Shown here one piece after another: positions 24,453 to 40,586 of a DNA stretch of 64,000 nucleotides. Source of the stretch: Myxococcota bacterium (lineage in GTDB: Bacteria > Myxococcota_A > UBA796 > CAJQPC01); assembly GCA_036229005.1 (NCBI GenBank), contig JAZAMN010000024.1:224001-288000 (forward strand), in the 5' to 3' direction. The stretch's first letter is position 1. Each line of letters begins with the position of its first letter. The notes under the pieces were generated by a model that did no database searches, was not told the DNA's origin, and saw nothing but the letters and a program-made list of their open reading frames with translations. The position numbers and the translations under genes were made by a program.

Positions 24453-27400
24453 TCAGCGGGTGGCCACAGCAGGGGTGCCGACCACGAACTGGTCGCTGCC
24501 GGTGCGGCCGAAGACTTCGGGGGCGTACATCTGCTCGACCGTGGCGGCCGGGTGGCTGTAGGTCCCTGGGGTCGTGGCGCGGGCCATGTAGGTGTAGGTG
24601 TGCACGCCGGCGGGCATCCAGTCCGCGTAGAGCATCACGCCCTGGTCGCGCAGCTCCCGGTGGTTGAAGACCCAGTCCGACCAGGTGCGCTCCGCCGCGG
24701 GGCCGGTGTCCCACATGCTCCAGGAGTCCTGACCGCCCGCGTCCATCGCGCTGGCGGTGGTGGCGAAGGCCGTGTTGACGGGCTCCAGGCCAGCGGGGAG
24801 GGGGTCCACCACGGCCACGAAGCTGCGCTCGACCGGGGTGCTGATGGTCAGGGTGACCTGCACCAGGCTGCCGGGGGTGACGGCGCCGGTGCTGCCGCTG
24901 CCCTCCAGCACCACCATCTGGCGGCGCAGGGTGAAGCCCTCGTCCCGGGGAGGGGCCTGCTCCAGGCCGTAGCTCAGGCGGGCCTCCCAATAGACCATCC
25001 CCTGGGGCTCGATGATCAGGTCTCCGGAGCTCAGGCTCTCCAGGGGGAGCTCCAGGACCTGGGGCTGGGCGCTCTGGAACTCGAACTCGGCCAGGCTCTG
25101 CTTGTCCAGCGCGATGCGGACCGAGCGGGCCAGGCCTTCATGCTCGGCGTAGGCGGCGTAGTCCGCGAGCGCCTGGAGGCTGAGCAGGGTGGTGTAGGTG
25201 TTGCCCCAGCGCGCGAGGCGGCGTCCCCCCACGAGCCCCTGGACGAGGCGGGGGAGCAGGGGGTTCTCGGGGTCGGCCACCAGCAGGGCGCGGACCAGGG
25301 CGGCGGTGGGGGCGGCGTCTCCCTCCCACAGGGCGAGGGCGCGGCTGCCCGGGTCAGAGGCCACGGTCGCGCTGGCCGCCTGGATGTCCAGGTGGCCCTG
25401 CAGCTCGGTGACCAGGCGCAGGGTGCGGGGGTCCGCGCCGGTGGTGCGCGCGATGGACTCCGCGAGGCCCGCCCGGGCGCTGAGGCTGAGCTGCTGGCGC
25501 TCGGCGAACAGCGCGCTGTTCACGCCGGGGTCCCCGTGGCCGATGCGGGCCAGGGTCAAGGCCACGCGGGCGTGGGCGTCCCGCTTGGTCTGCTCGGACC
25601 ACCAGTAGGGGGTGTAGGCCCCGTCCAGGAAGTCCCGCAGGAAGGCCACGGCCTCCGCGTCGACCTCCTGTCCGGCGCGGTGCTGCGCTTCCAGGGCGTG
25701 GGCAGTGGCCAGGGCGCTGGGCTCGGAGGCCCCCGGCCACATGGTGTAGCCGCCGCTGGGGTGGCGGAAGCGGCCCAGGCGGGAGAGCTCGCCCTCCCGG
25801 ATCTCCTGGATCTGTGCGCTGTCCCAGGCCAGCTCGAGCTGGGGATCCAGCTCCTGCGCCAGCACGGAGGCCATGAGTCGGGTGGAGGTCTGCTCCAGGC
25901 AGTGGTGGGGGTAGTCCAGCAGGTAGTCCAGTGAGTCCTCGCTCCCGACCAGCGCGGTGGGGGAGGCCTTGATGCTGAGGCCGCCGACGCCGGGCTGCAC
26001 GCCCTCGGGCAGGGCGAAGGGCTGGACCTGCCGCTCGCTGCTCGCGCCGGCGGTGGCCATGGTCTCCACGGGTCGGGGCCGGGCGACGGGCAGGCTCACC
26101 CGCACTGCGTCCTGGTCGTCGCCGGCCGAGACGGAGAACTCCAGGCTGGCGTCGCCGAGCTGGGCCTGGTCCAGGCCGAAGGGGACCTCCAGCGAGCCGT
26201 GGGCGGGCACGGTGACGGTCTTGGGGCTGCCCTGCAGCTCAAGGCCGGTCGCCGAGGCGTTCACCACGACCTCGCGGTCCTGGTCACGGTTGTTGTGGAC
26301 CACCACGCCGGCGATCGCGGCGTCGCCGCTGCGCAGGAAGCGGGGGAGCGCGGGGTTGGCCAGCAGGGGCCGGCTGACCTGGAGCTCCTGCTCGGCGCTG
26401 CCGAAGTGCTCGGCCCCGGAGTCCACCACGGCCATGACGCGGAAGGTGGTCAGGTTGTCGGGCAGGGTGAAGCTGTGCACCAGCGTGCCGTCCGCGCCGG
26501 TCTCCAGCTCGGCCTCCCACAGGGGAGTGGTCTGGAAGCGTGAGCGCAGTGCGGCGCTGCCGCCGTCTCCACCGGCCGGCGCGCCCTTGGCCAGCAGCGC
26601 CCCGCGGTCCAGCACCCGGGTGCGGGTGTCCGCGGTGAGCACGTGGAGCTGGCGGGGGCCCCAGAACTCCCGGAAGGGGGCCGGGGTCTGGTAGTCCGTG
26701 AGGCTGAGCACGCCGTGGTCGACGGCGTACAGCACGACGCGTGCTTGGGCGGCTGGCGCCTCGCCCGCCTGGGCCTTGAGCGTGACGGTCACCTGCTCGC
26801 CGGGCTGGTAGGTCTGCTTGTCCGTGCCCAGGTCCACGCTGAGCTCGCGGTCGGCGGCGCTCACGGCCAGCTCGGTGTAGCCCAGGTAGTGCGCGGGCAT
26901 GCCGGCGTCCGGGCTGTCGGAGGGGGGCGCCCCCTCGGTCAGGACCACGGACACGAAGAGGTTGGGCGCGTGCTCGGCGGTGATGGGCACGCTCAGGGTC
27001 TCGGCCTGCGTGGCCAGCTTGACCACGCGCTGCTCCAGCACCCCCTCGCGCTCCAGGGTGACCCAGGCCATCAGCCCCTCCTTGGGGGCCTTGACCAGGA
27101 TCTGGGCGGTCTCGCCGGGCTCGTAGGTGCGCTTGTCGGGGACCAGCTCGACCTGGTCGTCGTCGCCGCGGGCCCAGGACGCGCCCGGACCAGCCACGTA
27201 CATGCCCAGCTCGCTGGCGGTGGCCCGGCCCTGCGCGTCCTTCGCGCTGGCCTTGACCACGTAGTAGCCACCCTGGGGCGGCACGAAGCTCACGCGCTCG
27301 GCCTGCTTGCCGCTCTTGGCGGTCAGGCTCTCCACCGGGGTGTCCACCGGGTTGGAGGTCCAGGTCCAGCGCCCATCCATGCCCTTCTCGCGGACCACAT

Positions 27401-30044
27401 CCCAGGTGCGGCGGACCACCTGCAGCTCCACGGGGACGCCCGCCTGGGGAGCGCCCGCGGGATCCACCGCGACGAGATCGACGCTGGCGCTCTCTTGGGC
27501 CTTGGCCACCCCTGTGGTGGCCCGGAGGCCCAGGTAGAAGGCGGCCGGGTGCACCCGGACGTGGGCGCGGTTGGCGACCCGCTGGCGCGCGGGATCCTGC
27601 ACCTGCACCTCGATCTCCACCTGCTGGGGCCGGCTGCTCTCGCCAGCGGCGGGGAGCTCCAGCGAGATGTCCAGCTTCCCCTTTGCGTCCAGGGTGTCCT
27701 CGCCTGAGGCCAGCTCCTGCACAGGTTGGTGCTCATACTCCCACCAGGCGGCGGACTCGTCGCCGCCGAAGCGGTAGGCCTCCCAGCCGGGGATCTCCGG
27801 GGTCACCTCAACAGAGCGCACGGTCCAGGTGGCCTGCTGACCGCCCATGGCTGCGCCGAAGAGGTAGTTGCCGCTGCCCGTGGCCTGCAGGGTCTGCCCC
27901 ATGACCAGGTCCTCCGGGGCGCTGACCTGCACGCGGAAGCTGGGGGCCCGGTACTCCTGGGTCTGGACGGGCAGCCAGGTCACGGCCTTCTGGCCCTCGG
28001 CGCTCACCCGGAGCTCGCAGCTTCCGGTGCCGGTGGGCATGTCCGCGGGCAGCGCGAGGTCGAAGGCCACGCCTCCGTGTGCGTCCAGGGAGACCGTCTC
28101 CTTCTTGAGCTCGGCGCCGCGGGGGTCCTCGCAGAGGATCTCCATGCTGCCCTGGGGCAGGGCCATGCCGGTCGCGATGGTGCTGCGCGCCTTGCCCGCG
28201 ACGTGCACGGTGTCGCCGGGCTTGTAGACGCCCCGGTCGGAGAACGCGGACACCCGCAGGTGCCCGGGCTGGGTCAGCTCGCCCCGGTAGATGTCGAAGT
28301 CCCAGGTGCCCCGATGGTGCGGGTCATCCGAGCTGGTGACCAGCTTGTCTCCGTCCTTCTCCACGACCAGGAACACCGGCTCCTTCCAGGACTCCCAGCC
28401 CTCAGGCAGCAGATCCGGGCTGCTGGCCACCCCGTCCGCGTCGGTCACGCCCTCCCAGCGCAGCACGCCGCCGCGGTAGGCCCGCACCTGCGCGCCCTCC
28501 ACCGGCTGACCGTCCGAGAGGCGGGTCACCCACGCCTTGACCCCGTCGTGCCCCAGCTTGAGGGTGGTGCCCAGGTCCGAGACCTGCAGCAGGGCCTTGT
28601 GGTAGCGCTGCTCTCCGCGCCAGTTGGTGTCCTGTGGGCTCCAGGTCTCCACGAACACAAAGCCCCGCGCGTCGCGCAGGTAGGGGGCCAGATCCACCTG
28701 GTCCACGTGGATCCGGTCGTCCAGCTCCCGCTGGGTCACCAGAGGCAGCGGCGCCGTGTCGAAGCTGCGCCCGCTGGAGCTGAAGGCCTCCCACTCGTCC
28801 AGGTTGTTGATCACCCAGGCGCTGTCCACCGGGGTCACCGCCACGTAGAGCTGCTCGGCGTTCCGGGTGCGCACCGGCAGCGTGCTGGGGTTGGTGGCCG
28901 GGTAGAGCTGCTTGCCGCTGGCGGCGTCCACCAGGGTGTCGTGGTGCCCCGTGGTGAAGGTCCAGGACAGCGCCTTGTCGTAGGTCTGGCCGTAGCTGTC
29001 GGTGGCCCCGGGCTCCAGGGTCACCGTGTACGTGGTCATGGGCTCCAGCCGCACGCCGTGGGACCAGCCGCGCCACTCGAAGTCCTCGGCCGGCTCGAAG
29101 GGCTCGGGGGGCGCCGGCTCGATGCGGATGCGCCCGTTGAGCTGCTCGGCCGGGGTGCGCGTGGCCAGCTCCAGGCGGATGCGGGTGTAGGGATCCACCT
29201 GGTCCCCGGTGGGGAAGAACTCCTGGACCTGCGGGGGCGGCACCGTCGCGAAGTCGATCAGCCGCTGGGTGTCGCTCCCGCGGCTGCCCTGGGTCCCCCG
29301 GATCCCCGCGTCCAGCACCAGCCGGTAGTCGGTGTCCAGCGCGAGCTCGGAGCGCAGGACCACCACGCGCTCCCGATCCTTGGGGAGTCGGATCGCGTCG
29401 AACTCCGGGTCCAGGCTGCCCAGGCTGAGCGCCCCATGGCCCGGCAGGCTGGCCCGCTCCAGCACCGACTGCGGGTCCACCGGCTGGTTGAACACGAGCA
29501 CGATGTCCTCGCTGGGGTCGGCGCTGTCGGAGCCGTCCGAGGGCCAGGATCTCAAGAGGGTGGGCCGCTGGGTGGAGAAGCCGAACACCAGCTCCTTCTC
29601 CAGGGCAGTCCCGTCCGCGGCGGAGGTCCCCTTGGGGACGCGGCACTGGATCTCCGAGGCCATCGGGAAGCGCCCCGGCTCCGGCGTGAACACCGCCGTC
29701 TGCGTACCGGCCCAGCGCCCCGTGCCGGCCATCTCGCCGCAGCTCAAGGGCACTGGATCCTGGTCCAGGCGGGCCAGGGGGACCATGGGGCGATCAAAGA
29801 CCACCACGGCCTGACGCGGCTGCTCCTGCTCCCCCAAGGGGCCGACCATCAGCACCTGCAGGCCATCCCCCAGGTCCTGGTCCCAAGCCGCCAGATCCCC
29901 GGGGCCCACCGGGGCGATCTCCGGGAGCTGCGCCGCGCTCCCGACCGGCAGCACCGTGGCCTGGGACTGGGTCGCCGGATGGTCGGGCAGCTCGGGATCT
30001 TGTGCGCTGGGCTTACAGGCCAGCAGGAGCAGTGCGGTCAGCAT
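24453..30044 (-). CDS. Bacterial alpha-2-macroglobulin family lipoprotein
   Basis: Lipobox LLAC at ATG 30044; DRGVYKPG, LPDNLTTFR, thioester motif YPHHCLEQ, DPLPAGLE, MYAPEVFGR. Confidence 0.92.
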   Translation of the reverse strand: MLTALLLLACKPSAQDPELPDHPATQSQATVLPVGSAAQLPEIAPVGPGDLAAWDQDLGDGLQVLMVGPLGEQEQPRQAVVVFDRPMVPLARLDQDPVPLSCGEMAGTGRWAGTQTAVFTPEPGRFPMASEIQCRVPKGTSAADGTALEKELVFGFSTQRPTLLRSWPSDGSDSADPSEDIVLVFNQPVDPQSVLERASLPGHGALSLGSLDPEFDAIRLPKDRERVVVLRSELALDTDYRLVLDAGIRGTQGSRGSDTQRLIDFATVPPPQVQEFFPTGDQVDPYTRIRLELATRTPAEQLNGRIRIEPAPPEPFEPAEDFEWRGWSHGVRLEPMTTYTVTLEPGATDSYGQTYDKALSWTFTTGHHDTLVDAASGKQLYPATNPSTLPVRTRNAEQLYVAVTPVDSAWVINNLDEWEAFSSSGRSFDTAPLPLVTQRELDDRIHVDQVDLAPYLRDARGFVFVETWSPQDTNWRGEQRYHKALLQVSDLGTTLKLGHDGVKAWVTRLSDGQPVEGAQVRAYRGGVLRWEGVTDADGVASSPDLLPEGWESWKEPVFLVVEKDGDKLVTSSDDPHHRGTWDFDIYRGELTQPGHLRVSAFSDRGVYKPGDTVHVAGKARSTIATGMALPQGSMEILCEDPRGAELKKETVSLDAHGGVAFDLALPADMPTGTGSCELRVSAEGQKAVTWLPVQTQEYRAPSFRVQVSAPEDLVMGQTLQATGSGNYLFGAAMGGQQATWTVRSVEVTPEIPGWEAYRFGGDESAAWWEYEHQPVQELASGEDTLDAKGKLDISLELPAAGESSRPQQVEIEVQVQDPARQRVANRAHVRVHPAAFYLGLRATTGVAKAQESASVDLVAVDPAGAPQAGVPVELQVVRRTWDVVREKGMDGRWTWTSNPVDTPVESLTAKSGKQAERVSFVPPQGGYYVVKASAKDAQGRATASELGMYVAGPGASWARGDDDQVELVPDKRTYEPGETAQILVKAPKEGLMAWVTLEREGVLEQRVVKLATQAETLSVPITAEHAPNLFVSVVLTEGAPPSDSPDAGMPAHYLGYTELAVSAADRELSVDLGTDKQTYQPGEQVTVTLKAQAGEAPAAQARVVLYAVDHGVLSLTDYQTPAPFREFWGPRQLHVLTADTRTRVLDRGALLAKGAPAGGDGGSAALRSRFQTTPLWEAELETGADGTLVHSFTLPDNLTTFRVMAVVDSGAEHFGSAEQELQVSRPLLANPALPRFLRSGDAAIAGVVVHNNRDQDREVVVNASATGLELQGSPKTVTVPAHGSLEVPFGLDQAQLGDASLEFSVSAGDDQDAVRVSLPVARPRPVETMATAGASSERQVQPFALPEGVQPGVGGLSIKASPTALVGSEDSLDYLLDYPHHCLEQTSTRLMASVLAQELDPQLELAWDSAQIQEIREGELSRLGRFRHPSGGYTMWPGASEPSALATAHALEAQHRAGQEVDAEAVAFLRDFLDGAYTPYWWSEQTKRDAHARVALTLARIGHGDPGVNSALFAERQQLSLSARAGLAESIARTTGADPRTLRLVTELQGHLDIQAASATVASDPGSRALALWEGDAAPTAALVRALLVADPENPLLPRLVQGLVGGRRLARWGNTYTTLLSLQALADYAAYAEHEGLARSVRIALDKQSLAEFEFQSAQPQVLELPLESLSSGDLIIEPQGMVYWEARLSYGLEQAPPRDEGFTLRRQMVVLEGSGSTGAVTPGSLVQVTLTISTPVERSFVAVVDPLPAGLEPVNTAFATTASAMDAGGQDSWSMWDTGPAAERTWSDWVFNHRELRDQGVMLYADWMPAGVHTYTYMARATTPGTYSHPAATVEQMYAPEVFGRTGSDQFVVGTPAVATR

Positions 30045-30131
30045 GGATCTTCCTCGTTGCTGGGAAGCTATCGCGGAGGGCGGACAGATTCTGTCCTGGG
30101 ATCGCGTGGGGGGCGGGATAGCTTTCAGTCC

Positions 30132-31238
30132 ATGGCAGAACACGCAGACATCGTCGTCCTCGGGGCCGGCCTCGCCGGGCTCCTCTGCGCCCTCGAGCTC
30201 GCCCGCGCCGGGGTGGATGTGGCCGTGGTCGACGCCCAGCCCACCCCCTGGTCCCAGGGCTCCGGCGCCAGCCTCAACTCCCTGGGCCTGGTGCAGGTCG
30301 CGACCCCCGAGCACCCCCACCGCCTCCACGCGGCCCTCGGTCAGCAGCGCACCCAGCAGTACGTGGACTTCTCGCGCGCCTCCGTTCGGCGCCTCGCCGA
30401 GAACCTCCCCATGGAGCGGGGCGGCCTGCGGGTGTTCATGGGCAAGGAGGCCCAGGAGCTCTCAGACGCCGTGGCCATCGCGCAGCACCACGGCCTCCAG
30501 GATCTCGTCCTGAGCGTCGAGCAGGCCAGCGAGCGCCTGGGCCACGCCAGCCCCGGTCCCGCCCGGTGGGTGGAGGAGGATGGACGGCTGGACCCCGCGC
30601 ACGCCCTGGCCCACCTCCATGACCTCGCGGTGGCCGCTGGCTGTCGCTTCATCTCGGGCACCGTCGAGGTCATTGATGGTGAGGGCCCTCTCTCGCTGCG
30701 GGGCCCCGGGCTCTCCCTCCAGGCGGAGATTGTGGTGCTGGCCGCCAGCCACAGCCTGCGCACCCTGGTGCACTGGTTCCACGACAAGATCTTTCCCGTG
30801 CGCCACGCCGGCCTGCTCCTGGACGCCCAGCTCGCCCCCCTCACCGGCGCGAGCGCCCAGTACGGCTACCTGAGCTGGCAGGCCGATACCCAGGGGCGTG
30901 TGCGCGTCTCCGGCGCCCGCTGGGCCACCCCCCACCTGGAGACCGGCGAGACCGACCCCACCCCTGCGCCCCAGGTCCGGGCGGCTCTTGAGCGCTTCGC
31001 CGGCCAGCTCTTCCCGGGCGCCAAGGTGCTCGGCGCCTTCGCCGGAATCGCGGGGCACTCCTGCGACAACCTCCCCATCGTCGGGCCGCTCCCCGGGGGC
31101 CGCCTGGTCGCCTGCACCGGCTTCGGGGACTCCGGCTGGTCCACCGCCGCGGAGGCCGCTCACCAGTGCGCGCTGGGGATCCTGGGCGAGCCCACCCAGA
31201 TCCCGCCCTTCCTGCAGCCGGTGCGGTTCGTGGGCTGA
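30132..31238 (+). CDS. FAD-dependent oxidoreductase (DAO/PuuB-like)
   Basis: VVLGAGLAG, GASLNSLG, DNLPIVG, GFGDSG. Confidence 0.8.
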   Translation: MAEHADIVVLGAGLAGLLCALELARAGVDVAVVDAQPTPWSQGSGASLNSLGLVQVATPEHPHRLHAALGQQRTQQYVDFSRASVRRLAENLPMERGGLRVFMGKEAQELSDAVAIAQHHGLQDLVLSVEQASERLGHASPGPARWVEEDGRLDPAHALAHLHDLAVAAGCRFISGTVEVIDGEGPLSLRGPGLSLQAEIVVLAASHSLRTLVHWFHDKIFPVRHAGLLLDAQLAPLTGASAQYGYLSWQADTQGRVRVSGARWATPHLETGETDPTPAPQVRAALERFAGQLFPGAKVLGAFAGIAGHSCDNLPIVGPLPGGRLVACTGFGDSGWSTAAEAAHQCALGILGEPTQIPPFLQPVRFVG

Positions 31239-31255: not shown

Positions 31256-32473
31256 TCAGCGGGCCATGGTCGCGCTCGAGAAGCTGCTGATCTGGGCGCT
31301 GTCGGTGAAGCCGACGGAGTGGGTGCCGGGGAGAAAGTAGCCGCTGTGGCTCGTCCACAGGGTCCCGAAGCTGTTGTAGCCGCCGGCCGTCACCGCGCCG
31401 AAGTACCAGGGAAGCCGCTCGGTGGCGCTGACCTTCCGGTACAGCCCCGCTCGACTCCCCGCGTTCAAGAAGTAGAAGGTCTGAGGCAGCTCCGAAGTGC
31501 TCAGTCCGCACCCGCCGCTCGAGTGGAAGCCGCTGCGGATGGCGGTCACGGGCCCGAGGTACCCACTGCCGACGAAGTCGATCCGGTCCACGGTGAAGGG
31601 GCAGGACCAGCTCCCGTGGGCGCTCTCCCGGAGGGTGGCCCCACTCAGATTGGTAAGCACCGCCCCGCCGCTGTAGCTGCTGCTGAGCAAGGCGAGGTAG
31701 GACGTGGTCCCGCTCAGACGGGTCTCCAGCAGAGCCCACCGCTGCCGGTCCAGCACCAGCTCCCCCGAGTGGATCTGGATGCGCTCGTGGGTGACGCACA
31801 CCTCCAGGCCCCAGCACTCGTCGTCGTTGCAGTCGCGCTGACCGTCGCCGTCGTCGTCCTTGCCGTTGTCGCAGGTCTCCGCGCACACGTTGGAGCAATC
31901 GCCGTCTTCACAGTCGACCAGACCGTCCAGGTCCTCGTCCAGGCCGTCGCTGCAGTCCAGCTCGTGTTCCGGCGCACAGGCTGCCGCGCAGTCGGGGTCA
32001 TCGCAGTCGACCAGGCCGTCCAGATCCTCGTCCTCCCCGCCCCCGCAGACCTCGATGCAGGCCTCGAACTCGCTGCACTCGCTGTCTGCGCAGTCCACTT
32101 CCCCGTCCGCGTCGTCGTCCGCGCCGTTGTCGCAGTCCTCGGGGCACTCCAGGGCCGCGCTGCAGTCGGGATCGGCGCAGTCCACGTGTCCATCCCAGTC
32201 GTCGTCCAGCCCGTCCCCGCAGTCCAACTCCTGCTCCGGGGCGCAAGCCTCCTCGCAGTCGGGATCTGCACAGTCGGTGAGTCCGTCGACGTCCTCGTCC
32301 CGACCGTCTGCGCAGTCCTCTTCGACGCTGGGGCGGCAGGCCACCAAGCAGTCGATATCGTCGCAGTCCACGCGCCCGTCCAGGTCGTTGTCCACGCCGT
32401 CATCGCAGAGCTCATCGCTCGGCGTCGGGTCCTGGAGTTCGGGGGCGCAAGCCAACAGCCAGAGAGCGAACAT
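31256..32473 (-). CDS. Lipoprotein with 7 Cys/Asp-rich repeats (C-x-D-G-x-D-x-D-x-D-G-x-x-D-C-x-D-x-D-C) and a unique C-terminal domain
   Basis: Seven repeat copies read directly from the translation; lipobox LLAC. Confidence 0.8.
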   Translation of the reverse strand: MFALWLLACAPELQDPTPSDELCDDGVDNDLDGRVDCDDIDCLVACRPSVEEDCADGRDEDVDGLTDCADPDCEEACAPEQELDCGDGLDDDWDGHVDCADPDCSAALECPEDCDNGADDDADGEVDCADSECSEFEACIEVCGGGEDEDLDGLVDCDDPDCAAACAPEHELDCSDGLDEDLDGLVDCEDGDCSNVCAETCDNGKDDDGDGQRDCNDDECWGLEVCVTHERIQIHSGELVLDRQRWALLETRLSGTTSYLALLSSSYSGGAVLTNLSGATLRESAHGSWSCPFTVDRIDFVGSGYLGPVTAIRSGFHSSGGCGLSTSELPQTFYFLNAGSRAGLYRKVSATERLPWYFGAVTAGGYNSFGTLWTSHSGYFLPGTHSVGFTDSAQISSFSSATMAR

Positions 32474-32505: not shown

Positions 32506-34206
32506 CTAAAGCAGCGTGAAGTAGATCCCCGCCGCCTCATCAAAGCCCTCACGGCTCAGGCGGTGCGGCTGCTCCCGGAACAGGCACTGGTTCTGGATCT
32601 GCAGCATCAGGTCCCGCGGGTGGCAGTTGCGGAAGTTGCGGTTCACGCTGCGGTAGTGGGTCTCGATCACGTAGTCGAACACGGCGTCGTCGGGCTCGAA
32701 GCCCAGCAGCTCCGCCTGGATGTGCAGCAGCTTGCGGAAGTTGTCCTCGCTGGGGTCCTCGACGTTGACCTTGTAGGGGATGCGCCGCAGGAAGGCCTCG
32801 TCGCAGAGGTCCTTGGGGTCCAGGTTGGTCGAGAAGACCAGCAGCGGATCGAAGGGCACCTCGACCTTGCGACCGTCCGGAAGGCGCAGGAAGTCCACGC
32901 GCTGCTCCAGGGGCACGATCCAGCGGTTGAGCAGGGTCGCGGGCTCCACGCGCTGGCGGCCGAAGTCGTCGATGACCAGGGTGCCGCAGGCCGCCTTGAC
33001 CTGGATCGGGGCCTCGCAGATGCCGGTCTTGGGGTTGAAGTCCAGCTCCAGGCTGTCCATCGTCAGCTCGCCGCCCACGACCACGGTGGGGCGCCGACAC
33101 TTGACCCAGCGCGGATCCACGCGCTCCCGGCTGTTCAGGGTGCGGTCCTCGTCCTTGAGGGGCTCGTGGACCATCGGGTCGAACACCTTGACCAGGTGGC
33201 CGTCGATCAGCACCGCGTGGGGCAGGTAGACCGAGGTGCCGAAGGCGCGCGTCATGCGCTCGGCCAGGGAGGTCTTGCCGTTGCCCGGGAAGCCAAAGAG
33301 GAAGAGGCCCTTGCCCGAGGTCATGGCGGGGCCGAGCTGCTGCAGCAGCTCCTCGGTCACGAGCAGGTCCTGGAAGGCGCGGTAGAGGTCGCCCATGCGG
33401 GGCTTCTCGTTGGCGATGGACTGCTCGTGCACGCTCATCAGCCACTGGTCGAAGGGCACCGGCGCGGGACCGACATAGCGGCTGTGCTTCTGGAGGTCGT
33501 AGGCGTTCGCGCGCCCCTCCATCGTCAGCTCGTAGCGGAAGTCGCCGGTCGCGGTGCTGCGCTTGAGCACCACCAGCTTGGCCTCCTTGAGGTCCGCCAG
33601 CAGCTCCCGGACGATCTGCCAGTGCACCGCCAGCCCCTGGGCCACCTGGCGCCCCGTGCTGCCCGGCTGCGCGAGCAGGTACTTGAGGATCAGCCCGTCC
33701 ACGAAGCTGGCCTCCAGCCCCGCGCGGTCCAGATCCTTGGGCTCCACGGGCCGGAAGCGGGTGGGGGGGGGCGCCGCGATCACCGGGCGCTCGAAGGCCA
33801 TCGCCATCGGGCTGAGGCGGGCCTCTCCCTCCCGGTCCGTGCGCAGGCTCACCGAAGAGGCGCGCCGATCCACGAAGGTCTCCGCCGAGACCGTTGCGGC
33901 CACGGATGCGGTCGCCTTTTGGGGAGCGGGCTTGGGGGCCCCCGGAGTGCCTGGGTTCACCGCAACCCCGGCCGGTGCCTTCACGCTGGGCGGCATCGGG
34001 GCCTGCACGCGAGGTGCGGCTGGCTCGCTCCGCGGGGGCGGTGCGCTGGGGGTCAGGGGGATCCCGCGGGGGCGCACAGCGGCGGTGGGGGGCGGCTTGG
34101 GAGGCGCAGGGGGACGGGCCAGCCGCTCTTCCGGCTGCTGGGCACGCTCCCGCTTCTCGACAGCCTCCAGGGCTTGCCGAAGGGACTCCTTGAGGTAGCT
34201 CGCCAT
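32506..34206 (-). CDS. AAA+ ATPase (type often annotated as Flp/Tad-pilus-associated chaperone ATPase) with Pro-rich N-terminus
   Basis: Walker A GFPGNGKT, Walker B LVIDDFGRQ, FSTNL, DEAFLRRIPYK, CHPRDL. Confidence 0.8.
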   Translation of the reverse strand: MASYLKESLRQALEAVEKRERAQQPEERLARPPAPPKPPPTAAVRPRGIPLTPSAPPPRSEPAAPRVQAPMPPSVKAPAGVAVNPGTPGAPKPAPQKATASVAATVSAETFVDRRASSVSLRTDREGEARLSPMAMAFERPVIAAPPPTRFRPVEPKDLDRAGLEASFVDGLILKYLLAQPGSTGRQVAQGLAVHWQIVRELLADLKEAKLVVLKRSTATGDFRYELTMEGRANAYDLQKHSRYVGPAPVPFDQWLMSVHEQSIANEKPRMGDLYRAFQDLLVTEELLQQLGPAMTSGKGLFLFGFPGNGKTSLAERMTRAFGTSVYLPHAVLIDGHLVKVFDPMVHEPLKDEDRTLNSRERVDPRWVKCRRPTVVVGGELTMDSLELDFNPKTGICEAPIQVKAACGTLVIDDFGRQRVEPATLLNRWIVPLEQRVDFLRLPDGRKVEVPFDPLLVFSTNLDPKDLCDEAFLRRIPYKVNVEDPSEDNFRKLLHIQAELLGFEPDDAVFDYVIETHYRSVNRNFRNCHPRDLMLQIQNQCLFREQPHRLSREGFDEAAGIYFTLL

Positions 34207-34282
34207 CGACCCTCCTGGCTTCGTAGTGTAGCGCGCTGCAGCCCTTGCCCAATTACCTCTGGCTTCCGCTACACTGACAGTG

Positions 34283-35008
34283 ATGCTCGTCCCCTCCCTC
34301 CCTCACGTGAAAGCAGGCGCGTTTTCGCGCCGCGGCAGGGGCCACTCGCGCAACGACGATCGCTTCGGACTCTTCGATCACCGCGATCCCACGGTGCGCT
34401 TCGCCCGGCGCGGCGCCCTGTACGCGGTCGCGGACGGCGTCGGCAGCACGCGCGACGGCGCCGCGGCGGCCGAGGTGGTGATCCAGCACCTTCAGCAGTT
34501 CTTCACCTCAAGCTGGCACCCCTCCGAGAACCTGCTGGTCGACGTGGTCGAGGCCGCCGACGCCGAGGTCCGCATGACCATCGGCAGCGCCAGCACCCTC
34601 ACCGGGGTCTGGATGGCCGATCGCGTGGTCAGCATCTTCAACGTGGGCGACTCCGCCGTGTTCCTGCACCGCGACGGCCAGCTCCAGCGCATGACCCCGG
34701 AGCAGAAGCGCGGCGGCGGCCTCAGCGCCTGGGTGGGCATGGGGCCCAGCATCCGCCACATGCTCTTCATCCGGCGCCTGCCCATCCACGTGGGCGACGA
34801 GTACCTGATCTGCAGCGACGGCGTGCTCGAGGCCCTGAGCGTCCAGGAGCTCGGCACCCTGCTCCACGCCCACGGCGATGCGCTTCTCGATCAGGTGCGG
34901 GAGCGCCTGGACGACCGGGGCCACGGCGATGACGCCACGATGATCCAGCTCCGCGTGCTGGCCGAAGAGGTCGCGCCCTCCCAGTTGGAGCTCGAACCCC
35001 TCCCGTGA
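34283..35008 (+). CDS. PP2C/PPM family Ser/Thr protein phosphatase
   Basis: RNDD, VADGVG, NVGDS, CSDGV, GHGDDAT motifs; alternative start GTG 34280. Confidence 0.88.
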   Translation: MLVPSLPHVKAGAFSRRGRGHSRNDDRFGLFDHRDPTVRFARRGALYAVADGVGSTRDGAAAAEVVIQHLQQFFTSSWHPSENLLVDVVEAADAEVRMTIGSASTLTGVWMADRVVSIFNVGDSAVFLHRDGQLQRMTPEQKRGGGLSAWVGMGPSIRHMLFIRRLPIHVGDEYLICSDGVLEALSVQELGTLLHAHGDALLDQVRERLDDRGHGDDATMIQLRVLAEEVAPSQLELEPLP

Positions 35009-36399
35009 AGGCGCCCCCCGCTGCGTGGCTGGAGCAGCACCCCTCCGCCGTTGAGGTCGACAGCGGCCTGCCCTCGCCCCGCCGCGCGCGCCGCGATGGG
35101 GACACCTGGATCCTCCGCTGCACGCTGGCCGGCCCCCTCGCTCCCCAGGCGGAGCAGGAGTCGGGCTGGGCGCGGGTCCAGGGGCTGGAGCCCGGTCCAG
35201 ACAGCGCCCTCGCGCCCCTGGCCACGCTGTTGGAGTCGGGCCGACTGACCCCGACCTCGCTGGCGCCCAGGGAGCTGCTGAGCTTGCCGGGCGTCAACCC
35301 AGCCCGGGCGTTGCGGGCGCTGCGCATCAAGCGGGTCGATCGCTTCCTCGACCGTCCCCTGGAGATCGCCCACCGCGTCGGCCCCTCCTACACCCTGAGC
35401 CGGGACTTCCTGCGGCGACAGGGGGAGCGGGTGGTCTGCCTGGCCCCCTTTGAACCCCAGGGCTGGCAGGCGCTGGACGTGGCGCAGGTGGCCCTGGAGG
35501 AGGACGCCGACCTCAGCGAGCTGCACGGGGGAGGCGCCGCAGGAGAGACGGCGCTGCTCCTGGCGACGCTGGCGCTGGCGCTGCAGAGGAGCTGGCGGGA
35601 CCGGGATCCCGAGAGCGCCGACCGGGTCCGGGAGTGTCTGGAGGCCCTGAGGAGTCCGCCTCCGGAGCGGGTCCACATCCGGGTCCACGGCCCCGACTGG
35701 CTGGACACCCGGCCCTGGAGTGGGGATCGCAGCGCGAGCGAGGCCCGGCGCATCCTCCACAACCTCGACGGGCTGCAGGTGGACGGTCAGAGCCTGCGGG
35801 TGGACTGCACGCCGCCGCTGCACAAGGGGAAGCGCCCCCTGCTGCGCGAGGACCGGACCGTGCGCCGCACCCGCCTCTTCTCCCGCTGGGAGCAGGGCAT
35901 CCAGACCGACGACGAGGGCCTGCTCTCCGCCACCCCCGAGGCCCTGGCCCTGGACTTCGTGCAGGGGCTCTCCGGGCGCGTGCTGGACGGGACCTGCGGG
36001 GTGGGGGCCCTGGCGATCGCGGCGGCCCGCCGAGGCTGCAGCGTGGTGGCCTGTGACCTGAACGGACCGCGCCTGGAGATGGCCCGCCACAACGCCCGGA
36101 TCTACGGGGTGGAGCTGGATCTCCGCTGCGCGGACGTGCTGGACATCCTCCGCAGTGATGGCCCATTCGACGCCTTGATCCTCGATCCTCCCTGGGGCGG
36201 GCGCGACTACGACCGCCAGGGGATGCGCGCCCAGGACCTGCCCTTCCCGCTGCTGGAGGCCCTGGAGCTGGCCCCCCCGATGGTGCGCCTCAAGCTGCCC
36301 CGCTCCTTTCTGACCCAGAGCCTCCCCGGGGACTGGCGCTGGTCTGCGGCGGTGGATGCGCGGGGCGTCTTCAAGTTCCTGGTGGGGCGGCGCCCGTGA
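35005..36399 (+). CDS. SAM-dependent methyltransferase with Tgs1-like (RNA cap guanine-N2 MTase) C-terminal domain
   Basis: RLFSRW..GI..D.EG..S.TPE, DGTCGVG, ARHNARIYG, DPPWGG.DY, KLPR. Confidence 0.8.
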   Translation: MKAPPAAWLEQHPSAVEVDSGLPSPRRARRDGDTWILRCTLAGPLAPQAEQESGWARVQGLEPGPDSALAPLATLLESGRLTPTSLAPRELLSLPGVNPARALRALRIKRVDRFLDRPLEIAHRVGPSYTLSRDFLRRQGERVVCLAPFEPQGWQALDVAQVALEEDADLSELHGGGAAGETALLLATLALALQRSWRDRDPESADRVRECLEALRSPPPERVHIRVHGPDWLDTRPWSGDRSASEARRILHNLDGLQVDGQSLRVDCTPPLHKGKRPLLREDRTVRRTRLFSRWEQGIQTDDEGLLSATPEALALDFVQGLSGRVLDGTCGVGALAIAAARRGCSVVACDLNGPRLEMARHNARIYGVELDLRCADVLDILRSDGPFDALILDPPWGGRDYDRQGMRAQDLPFPLLEALELAPPMVRLKLPRSFLTQSLPGDWRWSAAVDARGVFKFLVGRRP

Positions 36400-37535
36400 T
36401 CGGCGGCCTGATCCTGGCCTTCCTGCTGGGCGTCGACGCTCTGCGCCGCGTCTACTCGGTGGGGCGCACCTGGAACGACCACTTCGTCGCGGCCGTGGTG
36501 CTGGGCTGCATGGGCTTCTACGCGCTCCACTGGCTGAGCGCTCCCGTGGCCCTCCGGCCGCTCTGGGGCTTGGGGATCCTTTGGATCTGGGGCCTGTTCT
36601 TCGCCCTGGGCGATCAGCGCGGGGACATCGCCCCCAAGTGGGCTCTGTGGGCCTTCGCCTGGCCCTCCCAGCTCGCCTACGCCTTCGCGCTGTGGGGCGG
36701 CCTGACCTGGCTCATCCGCGCGCCGATCGCCTGGGCCCTGGGCGCGGATCCTTGGTGGGCCGGCCCCTGGCTGCTCATCCCCGCAGTGCTCGCGGTGGCC
36801 GGGCAGATCCAGGCAATGCGCCCCCAACCCATCCGCCACCACGCCGTCCAAGGTCTGCCCGCGCGCATCGTCCAGCTCTCGGACCTGCACGCCAGCCCCG
36901 TGATGGCGCAGGAGGCCCTGGACGCCCTGGTGGACCGGGTCAACGCCCTGGAGCCCGCGCTGGTCTGCATCACCGGCGATCTGGTGATGCCCTTCTCCGA
37001 GGCCCGCCACGACTACCTGGTGCGTGCCTTGGCGCGGCTCCAGGCCCCGGTGGTCTGCTGCCCGGGGAACCACGACCTGCCCGTCCTGGCGCGCCTTCAA
37101 GAGGCTCTGGAGGCCGAGGGGATCGCGCTGCTCGCCGATCTGAAGGCCCACCGCGCGGGCTTCGAGGTCGTGGGCTTCACCTTTCGCTGGGGAGATGCCG
37201 CCGACGAGGTCAGGCTGACTGCGCGTGACCTCGCTGGGGCCAAGGAGTCCTTCCGGGTGTGGCTGGCCCACGATCCGAGGGTGGGTGGGTGGCTGGAGCC
37301 CGGGAGCTGCGATCTGCTCCTCTCCGGACACTCCCACGGCGGCCAGGTGGGCCTGAACATGTTCGGCCTGCGCCCGACGCTCTGGGGGCTCCTGGGGCAC
37401 CGCGACCAGGGCTGGTGGGAGGCCGGAGGGGCCCCGCACTACGTGCACGCCGGCAACTGGTGGATCGGCCTGCCGCCGCGCATGGGCGTCAGCGGGGAGA
37501 TCGCGGTGTTCGAGCCCTCGGACCGACCGGGCTAG
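36396..37535 (+). CDS. Membrane-anchored calcineurin-like metallophosphoesterase (YkuE/YaeI-like)
   Basis: SDLH, TGD, GNHD, LAHDP, GHSHGGQ; N-terminal TM helices. Confidence 0.88.
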   Translation: MIGGLILAFLLGVDALRRVYSVGRTWNDHFVAAVVLGCMGFYALHWLSAPVALRPLWGLGILWIWGLFFALGDQRGDIAPKWALWAFAWPSQLAYAFALWGGLTWLIRAPIAWALGADPWWAGPWLLIPAVLAVAGQIQAMRPQPIRHHAVQGLPARIVQLSDLHASPVMAQEALDALVDRVNALEPALVCITGDLVMPFSEARHDYLVRALARLQAPVVCCPGNHDLPVLARLQEALEAEGIALLADLKAHRAGFEVVGFTFRWGDAADEVRLTARDLAGAKESFRVWLAHDPRVGGWLEPGSCDLLLSGHSHGGQVGLNMFGLRPTLWGLLGHRDQGWWEAGGAPHYVHAGNWWIGLPPRMGVSGEIAVFEPSDRPG

Positions 37536-38293
37536 CCGAGCACGAGCTCCACGGGGGCGTGGTCGGAGGCCTTCTCCTTGCCGCGCTCCAGGCGGTGGAT
37601 GCGGGAGCCCTGCACGCGGTCCAGCACGGGCTGGCTGACCAGGAAGTGGTCGATGCGGTAGCCGGCGTCACGCGCGTAGCAGTTCATCCGGTAGTCCCAG
37701 AAGGTGAAGCTGCGGGGCGCCAGGTAGGGCTTGGAGGCGTCGGTGAGCCCCCAGTCCAAAAGGCGCTGGAACTTGTCCTTCTCGACCTGCGTGAAGGAGC
37801 AGACGCCCTCCATCTTGACCACGTCATAGACGTCGTCGTCCTGGGGCGCGATGTTCAGGTCGCCGGTGATCACGACGGGGGTGGCGGGGTCCTGGGTGGC
37901 CTCCAGCCAGGTCTGCAGGGCGTCGTAGAAGCGCAGCTTGTAGTCGAACTTCTCGTGCCCGACCTTGCGGCCCTGGGGGCAGTAGAGGTTCGTGATGCGG
38001 ACGCCGTCGATGGTCGCGGCGATCAGGCGGGACTCGCCCTCGTCGCCGTCCGGGAGGCCGCGGTGGACCTGGGACATGGGCAGCTTGGAGGCGATGGCCA
38101 CGCCGTTGTAGGTCTTCTGCCCGTGGGTCTCCAGGAAGTAGCCCCGCTCGGCGAAGATCTCGCGGGGGACCTTGTCGTCCTCGAGCTTGAGCTCCTGCAT
38201 GCACAGGACGGTGGGGGAGACGCGGTCCAGAAAGTCCGCGACGTGCTCGGCGCGGGCCTTGAGGCTGTTCACATTGAAGGTGACGATCTTCAT
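37532..38293 (-). CDS. xth: Exodeoxyribonuclease III
   Basis: TFNVNS, QELK, YNGVAI, GDLNIA, FTFWDYR, RIDH, SDHAPV. Confidence 0.95.
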   Translation of the reverse strand: MKIVTFNVNSLKARAEHVADFLDRVSPTVLCMQELKLEDDKVPREIFAERGYFLETHGQKTYNGVAIASKLPMSQVHRGLPDGDEGESRLIAATIDGVRITNLYCPQGRKVGHEKFDYKLRFYDALQTWLEATQDPATPVVITGDLNIAPQDDDVYDVVKMEGVCSFTQVEKDKFQRLLDWGLTDASKPYLAPRSFTFWDYRMNCYARDAGYRIDHFLVSQPVLDRVQGSRIHRLERGKEKASDHAPVELVLG

Positions 38294-38360: not shown

Positions 38361-40586
38361 TTGCTGCAGCCTGGTGATGAGATCGACATCTGGGTGGTGG
38401 AGCACGCGCTGGGGCAGGGCGGGATGGGCTCGGTCTACCGCTGCCACAACCGCTCCGCCAAGCGCATCCTGGCCGCGGTCAAGACCCTGGACCCCAGCCT
38501 GAACAAGATCGCCACGGCCAAGGCCCGCTTCGTCCGGGAGGCGGAGATCCTCTTCGCCCTGGACCACCCCAACATCGTGAAGGTGCGCAACGTCCGCATG
38601 GACGCCGAGCTGCCCTACATCGAGATGGAGTTCGTCGAGGGCGTCTCCCTGGACAGCCAGATCCTGCGCGGCCCGATGGCGGTCGACAAGGCGGTGGCGC
38701 TCTTCAAGCAGGCGGCCTCGGCGGTGGCCTACATGCACGAGAGGGGCGTGCGGCACCGCGACATCAAGCCCTCGAACATCATCCTCAAGTCCGACGGGCG
38801 CCTCAAGCTGGTCGACTTCGGCATCGCCACCGAGCAGGACGGCAAGACCCTCACGGCCCACGGGCAGACCTTCGGGTCGGTGTCCTACGCGCCGCCGGAG
38901 TGGATCGAGCCCGGCTCCCTGGAGGCCGTGCGCTGGGACGTCTACAGCCTGGGCACGGTGTTCTACGAGATGCTCGTGGGGCGCTTCGCGTTCCCGGTCT
39001 CTGGCCTGGGAACAAGCCGCCAGAAGGCGCTGCAGGTGATGATCGCCAAGCAGAAGCACCCGCCGCTGGACCCGGGCCCCACGCTCCCGGTGGACCTGCG
39101 CCGCCTGATCCGCGCGATGACCCGCAGCACCCCCGAGACCCGCCTGGCCACCGCCCAGGAGGTGCTGGACGCGCTCGAGGCCGCCGACCTGGAGACCGTG
39201 GACCCCGACGCCGAGTTCGAGGACACGCCGGTCGAGGCCCCCAGCTCCCACACCTGGTACCCGGGGATGGACCTGGAGGACATGGTGGACTCCCAGCCGG
39301 TGCCGCTGGAGCAGGCCGCCGAGCAGGCCGCGACCCCCCGCCCGCCGGAGACCCGGGAGCCCGAGCCGGCCCCCACCCTTGAGCCTCCCCGGCCCGAGCC
39401 CGCGCCCCAGGACGCCCCCATCCCGCCGGCCGACACGGGCGACGACTCCAACAAGAAGCTGGTGCTGGTCGGCTTCATTGCGGCCTTGGTCCTGCTCATG
39501 GCGGGCCTGGGCTGGCAGGTCTGGCGCAGCGATCCGGGACGCCAGGACCCCATCGTCGAGCCCCCTGCCGCCGCCCTGGGCCGAGACGTGGACGTCGTGG
39601 TCACCGGGCTCGCCCAAGACTCCGACCTCCAACTCCGGCTGGGCGGCGCCCGCTCTCGCAGCAGCGATGGCTTCGTCCACCACTTCAAGGACATCCCGCT
39701 GGGGAGCGTCGAGCTGGTGGCCATCCAGGGCGCGGGCTGTGAGCCGACCACCGACCAGCCCTGGTGCAAGCGCAGCGTGCAGACCATGGAGCTGGGCGCC
39801 GGCGAGGGCGTGCACACCCAGACCCTCAGCCTCTCTCCGCTCCCCGAGCGTCAGATCGAGCTCCGGGGACTGCGGGGGATGACCCTGCGCCTCGAGGGGG
39901 AGGAGGTCGAGGTGGATCGGCGTGGCCGCGCATCGATCTCCACCGCTCCGGGCCGCTATGCCCTCAGCGCCGAGAAGGGACTCTGCCCCAGCGAGGTCAC
40001 CGGGTGCTCGGCGGACGACAACTGCCCCGCTGGCTGCAGCTCGTGGGAGGGCAACCTGGACATCCCCGTCGACGGCGAGCTTGCCGCCTTCGAGATCCCG
40101 CTCCCCGAGCCCTCCAGGCGGGCGGGTGCGGAGGCCCCCGCGACCACACCGAGCAGCGACCCCATCCCGGAGCAGGCGCCGCCCGCGTCTTCGGACGCTG
40201 CGGCCAAGGCCCAGGTCAGCAACAAGCAGCTCGCCTCCTGGCTGGCCTCCCACCCCGAGTGGCAGCGCGAAGCCGCCTTGGAGAGCGGCAAGGCCGCCGG
40301 CAACTACCTCAAGGGCTGGGAGGGCGCGACGCCCCCCGCCGGGCAGGAGAGCGCCGCCGCCGTCAACGTGAGTTGGTCGATGGCCAAGGCCTACTGCGCC
40401 GGGCGCGGCGGCTTGGCGCCCACGAGCGCGAGCCCCAGCACCTGGGACGAGGGCGGCGCGCTGGCCTGGCACGAGTACCGGCAGCAGGACGGCGCGCCCG
40501 CGTGGGTGCGCAGCGACGGCACGGTGAGCACGGCCGTGAAGAAGAGCGACGCGAAGGCCTTCATCGGCTTCCGCTGCAGCCGCTGA
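38361..40586 (+). CDS. Transmembrane Hanks-type Ser/Thr protein kinase with extracytoplasmic region ending in an FGE/SUMF1-like segment
   Basis: GQGGMGSVY, AVK, HRDIKPSN, DFG, YAPPE, DVYSLG; TM; C-terminal VSN...VNVSW..AKAYC...IGFRC. Confidence 0.9.
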   Translation: MLQPGDEIDIWVVEHALGQGGMGSVYRCHNRSAKRILAAVKTLDPSLNKIATAKARFVREAEILFALDHPNIVKVRNVRMDAELPYIEMEFVEGVSLDSQILRGPMAVDKAVALFKQAASAVAYMHERGVRHRDIKPSNIILKSDGRLKLVDFGIATEQDGKTLTAHGQTFGSVSYAPPEWIEPGSLEAVRWDVYSLGTVFYEMLVGRFAFPVSGLGTSRQKALQVMIAKQKHPPLDPGPTLPVDLRRLIRAMTRSTPETRLATAQEVLDALEAADLETVDPDAEFEDTPVEAPSSHTWYPGMDLEDMVDSQPVPLEQAAEQAATPRPPETREPEPAPTLEPPRPEPAPQDAPIPPADTGDDSNKKLVLVGFIAALVLLMAGLGWQVWRSDPGRQDPIVEPPAAALGRDVDVVVTGLAQDSDLQLRLGGARSRSSDGFVHHFKDIPLGSVELVAIQGAGCEPTTDQPWCKRSVQTMELGAGEGVHTQTLSLSPLPERQIELRGLRGMTLRLEGEEVEVDRRGRASISTAPGRYALSAEKGLCPSEVTGCSADDNCPAGCSSWEGNLDIPVDGELAAFEIPLPEPSRRAGAEAPATTPSSDPIPEQAPPASSDAAAKAQVSNKQLASWLASHPEWQREAALESGKAAGNYLKGWEGATPPAGQESAAAVNVSWSMAKAYCAGRGGLAPTSASPSTWDEGGALAWHEYRQQDGAPAWVRSDGTVSTAVKKSDAKAFIGFRCSR

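What the first reader, a model, noticed from the sequence alone, without database searches (positions are those of the whole stretch)
35005..36399. Bacterial protein with a Tgs1-like RNA-cap guanine-N2 methyltransferase domain
Seen: the C-terminal ~175 aa (from 35872) read RLFSRWEQGIQTDDEGLLSATPE...DGTCGVG...ARHNARIYG...DPPWGGRDY...KLPR. Known (recalled from memory): eukaryotic trimethylguanosine synthase Tgs1 has RLFSRFD.GI..D.EGWFSVTPE, D.FCG.GG, AR.NA.VYG, SPPWGG.DY and LPR in the same order. The RLFS..TPE segment and PPWGG are Tgs1-specific cap-binding elements, not generic RsmD features. Just upstream, EARRILHNLDGLQVDGQSLRVD (35734-35808) resembles the helix2-strand4 end of an RRM fold, preceded by ~240 aa I cannot assign. 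Inference: bacteria have no canonical m7G cap, so the substrate is open. Options include NpnG-type RNA caps, a guanine nucleotide, an rRNA/tRNA guanine, or foreign capped RNA.
Basis: partly seen in the sequence, partly recalled or inferred. Interest (0 to 1): 0.8.

Follow-up and report, generated by a model that had tools for sequence, protein, structure and literature searches.

The report
Bacterial RNA-cap-type guanine methyltransferase
This bacterium, like most of its relatives, carries one copy of an enzyme of the family that in eukaryotes and their viruses adds methyl groups to RNA caps, although bacteria make no such caps, so it probably marks a bacterial RNA or nucleotide in a way not yet described.

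Summary
Confirmed. ORF 35005-36399 (464 aa) ends in a true Tgs-family guanine-N2 methyltransferase. Human TGS1 is the best match by sequence profile (E 1.7e-37; next family 1.8e-8) and by AlphaFold model (Z 24.8 over 183 residues including the cap-pocket extension; next 16.7). The SAM site and guanine pocket are kept. Upstream lie a clipped RRM-like domain and a probable dead APH-like kinase fold (both weak matches). It is not a stray gene: single copy in 40 of 44 genomes of its order and 39 of 131 of another Myxococcota order, in four domain architectures, and one form occurs in algae with signal-peptide-like leaders. No capping guanylyltransferase was found in the genome; RsmD, RsmG, TrmB and RlmL-like enzymes are present. 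Lys replaces TGS1 Phe804, as in 68 of 69 viral Tgs, suggesting one methylation. Guanine-N2 chemistry is likely (~0.8). The substrate is untested: internal (m7)G of tRNA/rRNA ~0.4, 5' cap ~0.22, free m7G nucleotide ~0.18. I found no paper on bacterial Tgs in seven searches, though databases auto-label some members. The scan had not noted this family before.

The parts
35005..36399 (+). Gene for a 464-aa Tgs-family methyltransferase (subfamily A: APH-like + RRM-like + Tgs domain)
   Evidence: model mean pLDDT 93.0, pTM 0.77
35005..35658 (+). Probable dead APH/ELK kinase-like fold (aa 1-218): five-strand lobe, helical insert, degenerate catalytic loop, C-terminal helices. Inferred, not shown by fold search
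   Evidence: secondary structure; hhalign to APH profile score 25.7-28.9, 0 of 60 shuffles as high; no Pfam or PDB sequence hit
35266..35370 (+). Basic helical insert (RALxxLxxxRxDR), kept even in homologues that lost the rest of the kinase-like part; candidate RNA contact
35371..35499 (+). Region aligning in register with the APH HGD..N / DWE / G.P..DL motifs, catalytic residues absent
35659..35814 (+). Clipped RRM/ferredoxin-like domain (aa 219-270)
   Evidence: homologous to subfamily B N-domain P 96.6; 6 of the top 7 PDB hits of the profile are chains of RRM proteins, E 0.11-0.64; 0 of 60 shuffles
35815..35937 (+). Arg-rich linker running into the Tgs N-terminal extension (RLFSRW..DDEGLLSATP; F292, E304, S308, T310, P311 = hTGS1 F655, E667, S671, T673, P674)
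   Evidence: structural alignment starts at 280/642
35938..36396 (+). Class I Rossmann methyltransferase core; D328, D351, N363 = hTGS1 D696, D719, N731; L336 replaces N704
36184..36210 (+). DPPWGGRDY: catalytic Asp, base-stacking Trp397 (W766), Tyr402 (Y771)
36292..36306 (+). KLPRS: Lys430 in place of hTGS1 F804, Pro432 (P806), Arg433 (R807), Ser434 in place of N808
34280..35008 (+). Upstream PP2C-like phosphatase gene, overlapping by 4 nt; neighbour only in close kin
36396..37535 (+). Downstream membrane metallophosphoesterase gene, overlapping by 4 nt; neighbour only in close kin

Best explanation
A housekeeping SAM-dependent guanine-N2 methyltransferase of the Tgs family that puts one methyl group on a specific guanosine inside a stable RNA (tRNA or rRNA), quite possibly one already N7-methylated by TrmB or RsmG, giving m2,7G (or m2G). 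SHOWN: Tgs fold with its N-terminal extension, SAM and base-pocket residues, single-copy inheritance. INFERRED: SAM binds D328/D351; the guanine stacks on W397 opposite S308; D394/P395 carbonyls activate N2 as in hTGS1; K430 in the place of F804 limits the reaction to one methyl; the RRM-like domain, Arg-rich linker and basic insert hold the RNA; the kinase-like part is an inert, dispensable scaffold. NOT SHOWN: activity, the RNA, the position.
For: Fold and pocket. 10 of the 11 residues important in Giardia Tgs2 are kept. One strong copy in 37 of 41 relatives, 40 of 44 of the order, 39 of 131 of a second order; none in phage or plasmid collections; no conserved pathway neighbours. RRM-like domain in all four subfamilies, 6 or more basic residues in the 26 before D665 in 108 of 108 subfamily A rows. 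No capping guanylyltransferase in the 94% complete genome and only a sub-threshold cap N7-MTase match, while m7G writers TrmB and RsmG are present. Algal subfamily B members have hydrophobic leaders (10 of 10 score 1.8-3.1; bacterial mean 0.97, 3 of 107 at 2.0 or more), hinting at the plastid, which has bacterial-type tRNA/rRNA. A TGS1-like fold acting inside rRNA has an archaeal precedent (PMC11551388).
Against: Every characterised Tgs I read about acts on m7G with a 5' di- or triphosphate and not on GTP. The motif changes I first took as signs of an internal substrate (no KYW, Lys at 804, loss of R807) are shared by giant-virus Tgs and by Tgs domains fused to a nodavirus-type capping enzyme, so they do not exclude caps. 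Subfamily A keeps R807 (R or K in 105 of 113) and Y771 (104 of 113). RsmD and RlmL-like enzymes are present, RsmC-like in 4 of 5 and RsmJ in 2 of 5 genomes tested, so no missing rRNA enzyme is being replaced. Some Sandaracinaceae members lack the RRM-like domain. Subfamily A lost N704, whose Ala mutant leaves 5% activity in hTGS1. Plastid targeting is by eye and hydropathy only.
Confidence: 0.4

Rival explanations
1. A real bacterial cap enzyme: it N2-methylates a guanine at the 5' end of the cell's own RNA (an N7-methylated Gp(n)N cap, an unmethylated NpnG cap, or a pppG start), giving a dimethyl-G cap that shields the RNA from decapping.
For: In the tree the bacterial clades lie between viral Tgs and eukaryote-type TGS1, both cap-acting by the literature read. 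The same KLP/DPPWGG signature is fused to a capping MT/GT in three noda-like replicases. Methylated NpnN caps that resist RppH are reported in E. coli (PMC11253889). R433 and Y402 are kept.
Against: No capping GTase or clear cap N7-MTase found; no co-occurring extra TrmB copy; Lys646 absent; subfamily B has Pro at R807 in 104 of 117 rows; E. coli has methylated caps without, as far as I recall, a Tgs homologue.
Confidence: 0.22
2. A nucleotide-pool enzyme: it methylates free m7GMP/m7GDP/m7GTP from turnover of the cell's own m7G RNA or from eukaryotic prey caps, to keep them out of RNA or mark them for disposal.
For: Tgs enzymes need no RNA and act on m7GDP/m7GTP; accessory domains are individually dispensable; many Myxococcota are predators (recalled).
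Against: An RRM-like domain and Arg-rich linker in all four subfamilies suggest a polymer substrate; no nucleotide-salvage neighbours.
Confidence: 0.18
3. Same pocket, other acceptor: it methylates the exocyclic amine of C or A in RNA, or a protein amide.
For: The archaeal m4,2C synthase is a TGS1 structural relative acting on 16S rRNA cytidine; (D/N)PP(Y/W) enzymes accept several planar amines.
Against: m4,2C synthase has DPPR and ranks 39th in Foldseek (8vyd, E 1e-5, versus 1e-11 for TGS1); HemK, METTL5 and Trm11/14 score Z 13-16 versus 24.8; S671/T673/W766 equivalents are kept.
Confidence: 0.12
4. It acts on foreign capped RNA (prey or virus), or subfamily A is an inactive RNA-binding relic.
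For: Subfamily A lost N704 and has Gly for S671 in 19 of 108 rows; no RNA-seq contig covered the gene (uninformative).
Against: Strict single copy, invariant catalytic residues, no defence or mobile context.
Confidence: 0.08

Closest known systems
Human TGS1 / yeast Tgs1 (trimethylguanosine synthase; PDB 3GDH; PF09445)
   Same: Fold including the N-terminal extension (Z 24.8); F655, E667, S671, T673, D696, D719, N731, W766, Y771, P806, R807 equivalents
   Different: S763 to Asp, F804 to Lys, N704 to Leu, N808 to Ser, no K646-Y-W; fused to RRM-like and APH-like domains; host has no detectable capping enzyme
Giardia Tgs2, Trichomonas Tgs, mimivirus-type Tgs (single N2 methylation; mimivirus activity recalled, paper not read)
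   Same: DPPWGGxDY and DGTxxxG as in Giardia Tgs2; 10 of 11 important residues; Lys at 804 and no KYW as in giant-virus homologues
   Different: Separate clade (99 SH-aLRT branch to viral Tgs); keeps RLFSR; lacks the D76 equivalent; accessory domains
RsmD, RsmC, RlmG, RlmL, Trm11, Trm14/TrmN (internal m2G writers)
   Same: Probable N2-guanine chemistry; RNA-binding domain plus MTase layout as in Trm11/Trm14
   Different: Much weaker match (Z 13-16); lack the Tgs extension and Trp; RsmD and RlmL-like genes exist separately in the genome
Archaeal m4,2C synthase TK2045 (COG2521, PMC11551388)
   Same: Prokaryotic TGS1-like fold modifying RNA
   Different: DPPR motif, cytidine acceptor, distant in sequence and fold ranking

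Membership tests
Tgs / RNA cap guanine-N2 methyltransferases | Best sequence and profile match, clear of other MTases | tested here: met
   (36 of 36 members match PF09445)
Tgs / RNA cap guanine-N2 methyltransferases | Helical N-terminal extension closing the cap pocket | tested here: met
   model 280-464 aligns to 3gdh 642-843; subfamily B 77-272 to 639-844, Z 26.4
Tgs / RNA cap guanine-N2 methyltransferases | (S/D)PPW with stacking Trp, S671, T673, N731, SAM acids | tested here: met
   invariant or 90%+ in 36 aligned; census
Tgs / RNA cap guanine-N2 methyltransferases | Polar residue at N704/D76 | tested here: not met
   Leu/Ile in subfamily A; Asn/Asp in B, C, D
Tgs / RNA cap guanine-N2 methyltransferases | Phosphate contacts K646, Y771, R807 | tested here: inconclusive
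   Y402 and R433 present, K646 absent; viral Tgs also lack K646 and R807; side-chain geometry not inspected
Tgs / RNA cap guanine-N2 methyltransferases | m7G-dependent N2 methylation in vitro | not testable with these tools
   needs assay
Trimethylguanosine synthases proper (two methylations) | Aromatic F804 pocket for the first methyl; SPPW | tested here: not met
   Lys in 110 of 113 subfamily A rows; F/Y in 12 of 13 eukaryote-type rows; role of F804
m7G capping pathway | Guanylyltransferase and cap N7-MTase in the same genome | tested here: not met
   PF01331 no match; PF03291 22.4 bits, below 26.6; genome 94% complete
RsmD / RsmC / RlmL / Trm11 | Passes the family model or is its best structural match | tested here: not met
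   no NCBIfam cut-off reached; separate RsmD in 41 of 41; Z at most 15.7
RRM | beta-alpha-beta-beta-alpha-beta fold with RNP motifs | tested here: inconclusive
   topology complete in subfamily B, clipped here; weak profile hits; no Pfam hit; domain not fold-searched alone; RNP aromatics not evident
APH / ELK kinases | Bilobal kinase fold | tested here: inconclusive
   Atlas TM 0.29 to a Kdo/APH cluster, under its bar; domain not fold-searched alone
APH / ELK kinases | Catalytic HGD..N and DWE residues | tested here: not met

The most novel reading that the evidence does not exclude
Several Myxococcota lineages make a dimethylguanosine (m2,7G) mark or cap on their own RNA with a chromosomal Tgs enzyme; this bacterial radiation was passed to algal plastids and may include the ancestor of eukaryotic TGS1 (eukaryote-type and minimal bacterial Tgs sit among the four Myxococcota clades when rooted on viral Tgs or on distant MTases, with weak support).
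Probability: 0.25. Interest if true: 0.92.

Novelty: new variant of a known kind. Interest (0 to 1): 0.72.

Why it matters
A 2008 paper described the Tgs family as apparently exclusive to eukaryotes (PMC2588526), and the writers of methylated bacterial caps are an open question. A conserved single-copy Tgs enzyme in whole bacterial lineages, with a member in the named species Sandaracinus amylolyticus (P0063) and one in Aureococcus anophagefferens, makes the question testable with one assay panel. The result would be a new bacterial RNA modification, a bacterial methylated cap or a new nucleotide-cleaning route, and bears on where TGS1 came from.

Tried and rejected
RsmD displacement: rejected, RsmD in 41 of 41. 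Displacement of RsmC, RsmJ or RlmL: not supported in 5 genomes; own genome showed no RsmC- or RsmJ-like hit. A partner TrmB paralogue: rejected, one TrmB in 127 of 131 genomes whether Tgs-positive or not; own genome has two. RsmG in 38 of 41, uninformative. Operon clue: neighbours change with lineage; exonuclease III recurs in 15 of 92 loci (some of them the same locus fetched twice) and an RlmL-like gene in 5, read as local synteny. Mobile origin: no phage or plasmid match, only generic PHROG hits. My argument that loss of KYW/R807 and Lys at 804 means a non-cap substrate: withdrawn after viral Tgs showed the same. Expression: no contig of 4 RNA runs covered the gene; not evidence. No Rfam family in the window, no promoter or terminator consensus. 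Atlas searches gave no usable hit. First motif census and two rows of one tree (P0039, P0111) were mis-cut; counts come from one search, which left 8 of 121 A, 6 of 123 B, 2 of 33 C, 4 of 28 E and 7 of 21 eukaryote-type rows unparsed and mis-picked motif IV in some rows. Rooting with RsmD/RlmL is long-branch unreliable. Whole-protein fold searches were filled by the MTase, so they say nothing on the N-terminal domains. One search added nothing. Mouaikel 2003 was not held.

Full report
Observation. The ORF 35005-36399 is intact and all quoted motifs are present in order. It overlaps its PP2C-like and metallophosphoesterase neighbours by four bases each.

Family. PF09445 is the best Pfam family (45.8 bits) and no NCBIfam model reaches its cut-off. 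Because 11 of 14 control genomes also pass PF09445, I relied on gaps: human TGS1 is the top PDB sequence (E 1.5e-18, next 2.7e-7) and the top hit of a 36-sequence profile (1.7e-37, next family 1.8e-8). The AlphaFold model (pLDDT 93.0) matches the active, m7GTP-bound TGS1 first in Foldseek and VIA-align (Z 24.8, rmsd 2.5, 183 residues, 280-464 on 642-843; next 16.7), so the N-terminal extension that completes the cap pocket is present.

Active site. From PMC2709555 (parts 3-6 of 7 read), F655, E667, S671, T673, D696, D719, N731, W766, Y771, P806 and R807 map to F292, E304, S308, T310, D328, D351, N363, W397, Y402, P432 and R433. S763 is Asp, a change that keeps 97% activity in hTGS1. Of 11 important Giardia Tgs2 residues (PMC1865056, passages and section 15) 10 are kept; the D76/N704 position is Leu. 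K646 is absent and F804, proposed to house the first methyl group, is Lys in 110 of 113 parsed subfamily A, 117 of 117 B, 28 of 29 C and 9 of 9 D rows, against F/Y in 12 of 13 eukaryote-type rows ('eukaryote-type' is my label from SPPW and tree position, not from source names). I infer single methylation.

Accessory domains. Residues 219-270 are homologous to the N-domain of subfamily B, whose model (pLDDT 96.5) has full RRM topology; here helix 1 and strand 2 are missing. A profile of this domain returns chains of RRM proteins in 6 of its top 7 PDB hits, all weak. Residues 1-218 align in register with APH catalytic motifs but without the catalytic residues; scores exceed all 60 shuffles for both domains, though I chose the templates and HH probabilities are low (6-26%). 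Each domain is lost in some homologues, so neither is essential.

Distribution. 136 proteins matched (120 listed), with titles naming Myxococcota, Sandaracinaceae or mislabelled assemblies; some are auto-named trimethylguanosine synthase. One strong copy occurs in 37 of 41 relatives. In 301 genomes of the phylum, 51 have a hit of 130 bits or more: 40 of 44 in the own order, 6 of 14 in the rest of the class, 5 in one distant family; 5 other genomes have only weak hits that I did not examine, and the search is a floor. In the order holding Sandaracinaceae, 39 of 131, always one copy (one is unpublished genome G429). Four clades differ in architecture: A and D (APH-like + RRM-like + MTase), C (helical remnant + RRM-like + MTase), B (RRM-like + MTase). 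Neighbours are not conserved beyond kin. No phage or plasmid copy. Subfamily B includes algal proteins, one named Aureococcus anophagefferens, with 21-84 residue hydrophobic leaders against a median of 5 in bacteria; cleavage sites judged by eye resemble the plastid motif of PMC4329603 (passages). A separate minimal bacterial group that mostly keeps (K)YW groups with eukaryote-type TGS1.

What could supply the substrate. No capping guanylyltransferase and no cap N7-MTase above cut-off were found in the 94% complete genome. RsmD, RsmG, TrmB and RlmL-like genes are present, so m7G exists inside tRNA and rRNA (established roles of TrmB and RsmG, recalled) and no known m2G writer is clearly displaced.

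Evidence against my leading reading. A viral scan found three noda-like replicases with a C-terminal Tgs domain, one shown to carry a capping MT/GT domain, and giant-virus Tgs with Lys at 804 in 68 of 69, KYW in 2 of 72 and no conserved R807 (80 of 120 loci kept, 77 distinct). These changes are therefore compatible with cap substrates. All characterised Tgs I read about need m7G, and the bacterial clades lie between viral and eukaryote-type Tgs (quick tree). This raises m7G dependence and keeps the cap and free-nucleotide rivals alive.

Literature. Seven searches (listings only unless noted) found no study of a bacterial Tgs. PMC2588526 (passages, section 12) calls the family apparently eukaryote-only and mentions a similar uncharacterised archaeal and Gram-positive family, citing Mouaikel 2003, which was not held and may bear on priority. 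PMC4615557 and PMC11253889 (passages) cover caps; PMC11551388 (passages, outline) gives the archaeal m4,2C precedent. Supplements were not read; the Tgs alignments there could show the residue at 804 in Giardia and Trichomonas. Subscription journals are not covered.

Verdict. Real and well supported as a Tgs-family enzyme in bacteria; a new variant of a known kind. Guanine-N2 chemistry about 0.8. Substrate: internal guanosine of stable RNA 0.4, own 5' cap 0.22, free m7G nucleotide 0.18, other acceptor 0.12, foreign RNA or inactive 0.08. Interest 0.72.

Noticed in passing
L153:22-3651; L156, L157 (IMG/VR contigs): Three related noda-like RNA virus replicases (49-52% identical) end in a Tgs-type N2-methyltransferase domain; L153 has nodavirus capping MT/GT + RdRP + PF09445 in one ORF, suggesting dimethyl-G caps.
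   Followed up: partly
P0276/P0432, P0188, P0273-P0275, P0279, P0295, P0347, P0157, P0167: Algal subfamily B homologues with signal-peptide-like leaders, nested among bacterial sequences; P0274/P0275 carry a 25-residue insert that looks like an unspliced intron.
   Followed up: partly
L041, L046, L047, L048; P0144, P0149, P0169: Stand-alone ~210-aa Tgs in scattered bacteria (titles include Patescibacteria and Isosphaeraceae) that mostly keep the eukaryote-like (K)YW and group with eukaryote-type TGS1.
   Followed up: partly
P0155, P0182 (P0159 related): Fic domain fused to a Tgs domain; possible conflict-system use.
   Followed up: no
G000:C6:25537-26043 and C71:77486-77968; C1:22246-22812 and C39:20891-21424: The genome has two TrmB-like and two RlmL-like methyltransferases.
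   Followed up: partly
window 32506-34206 (-): 566-aa winged-helix + AAA-like ATPase divergent from the operon, beside the gene in many subfamily A loci; only sub-threshold Pfam hits.
   Followed up: no
window 37532-38293 (-), 38361-40586 (+): Exonuclease III family gene and a Ser/Thr kinase; exonuclease III also lies directly upstream of several subfamily B genes.
   Followed up: partly
window 24453-30329 (-), 31256-32473 (-): A 1958-aa ORF that reads like an alpha-2-macroglobulin lipoprotein and a 405-aa ORF with Cys/Asp-rich repeats typical of myxobacteria (both recalled, not searched).
   Followed up: no
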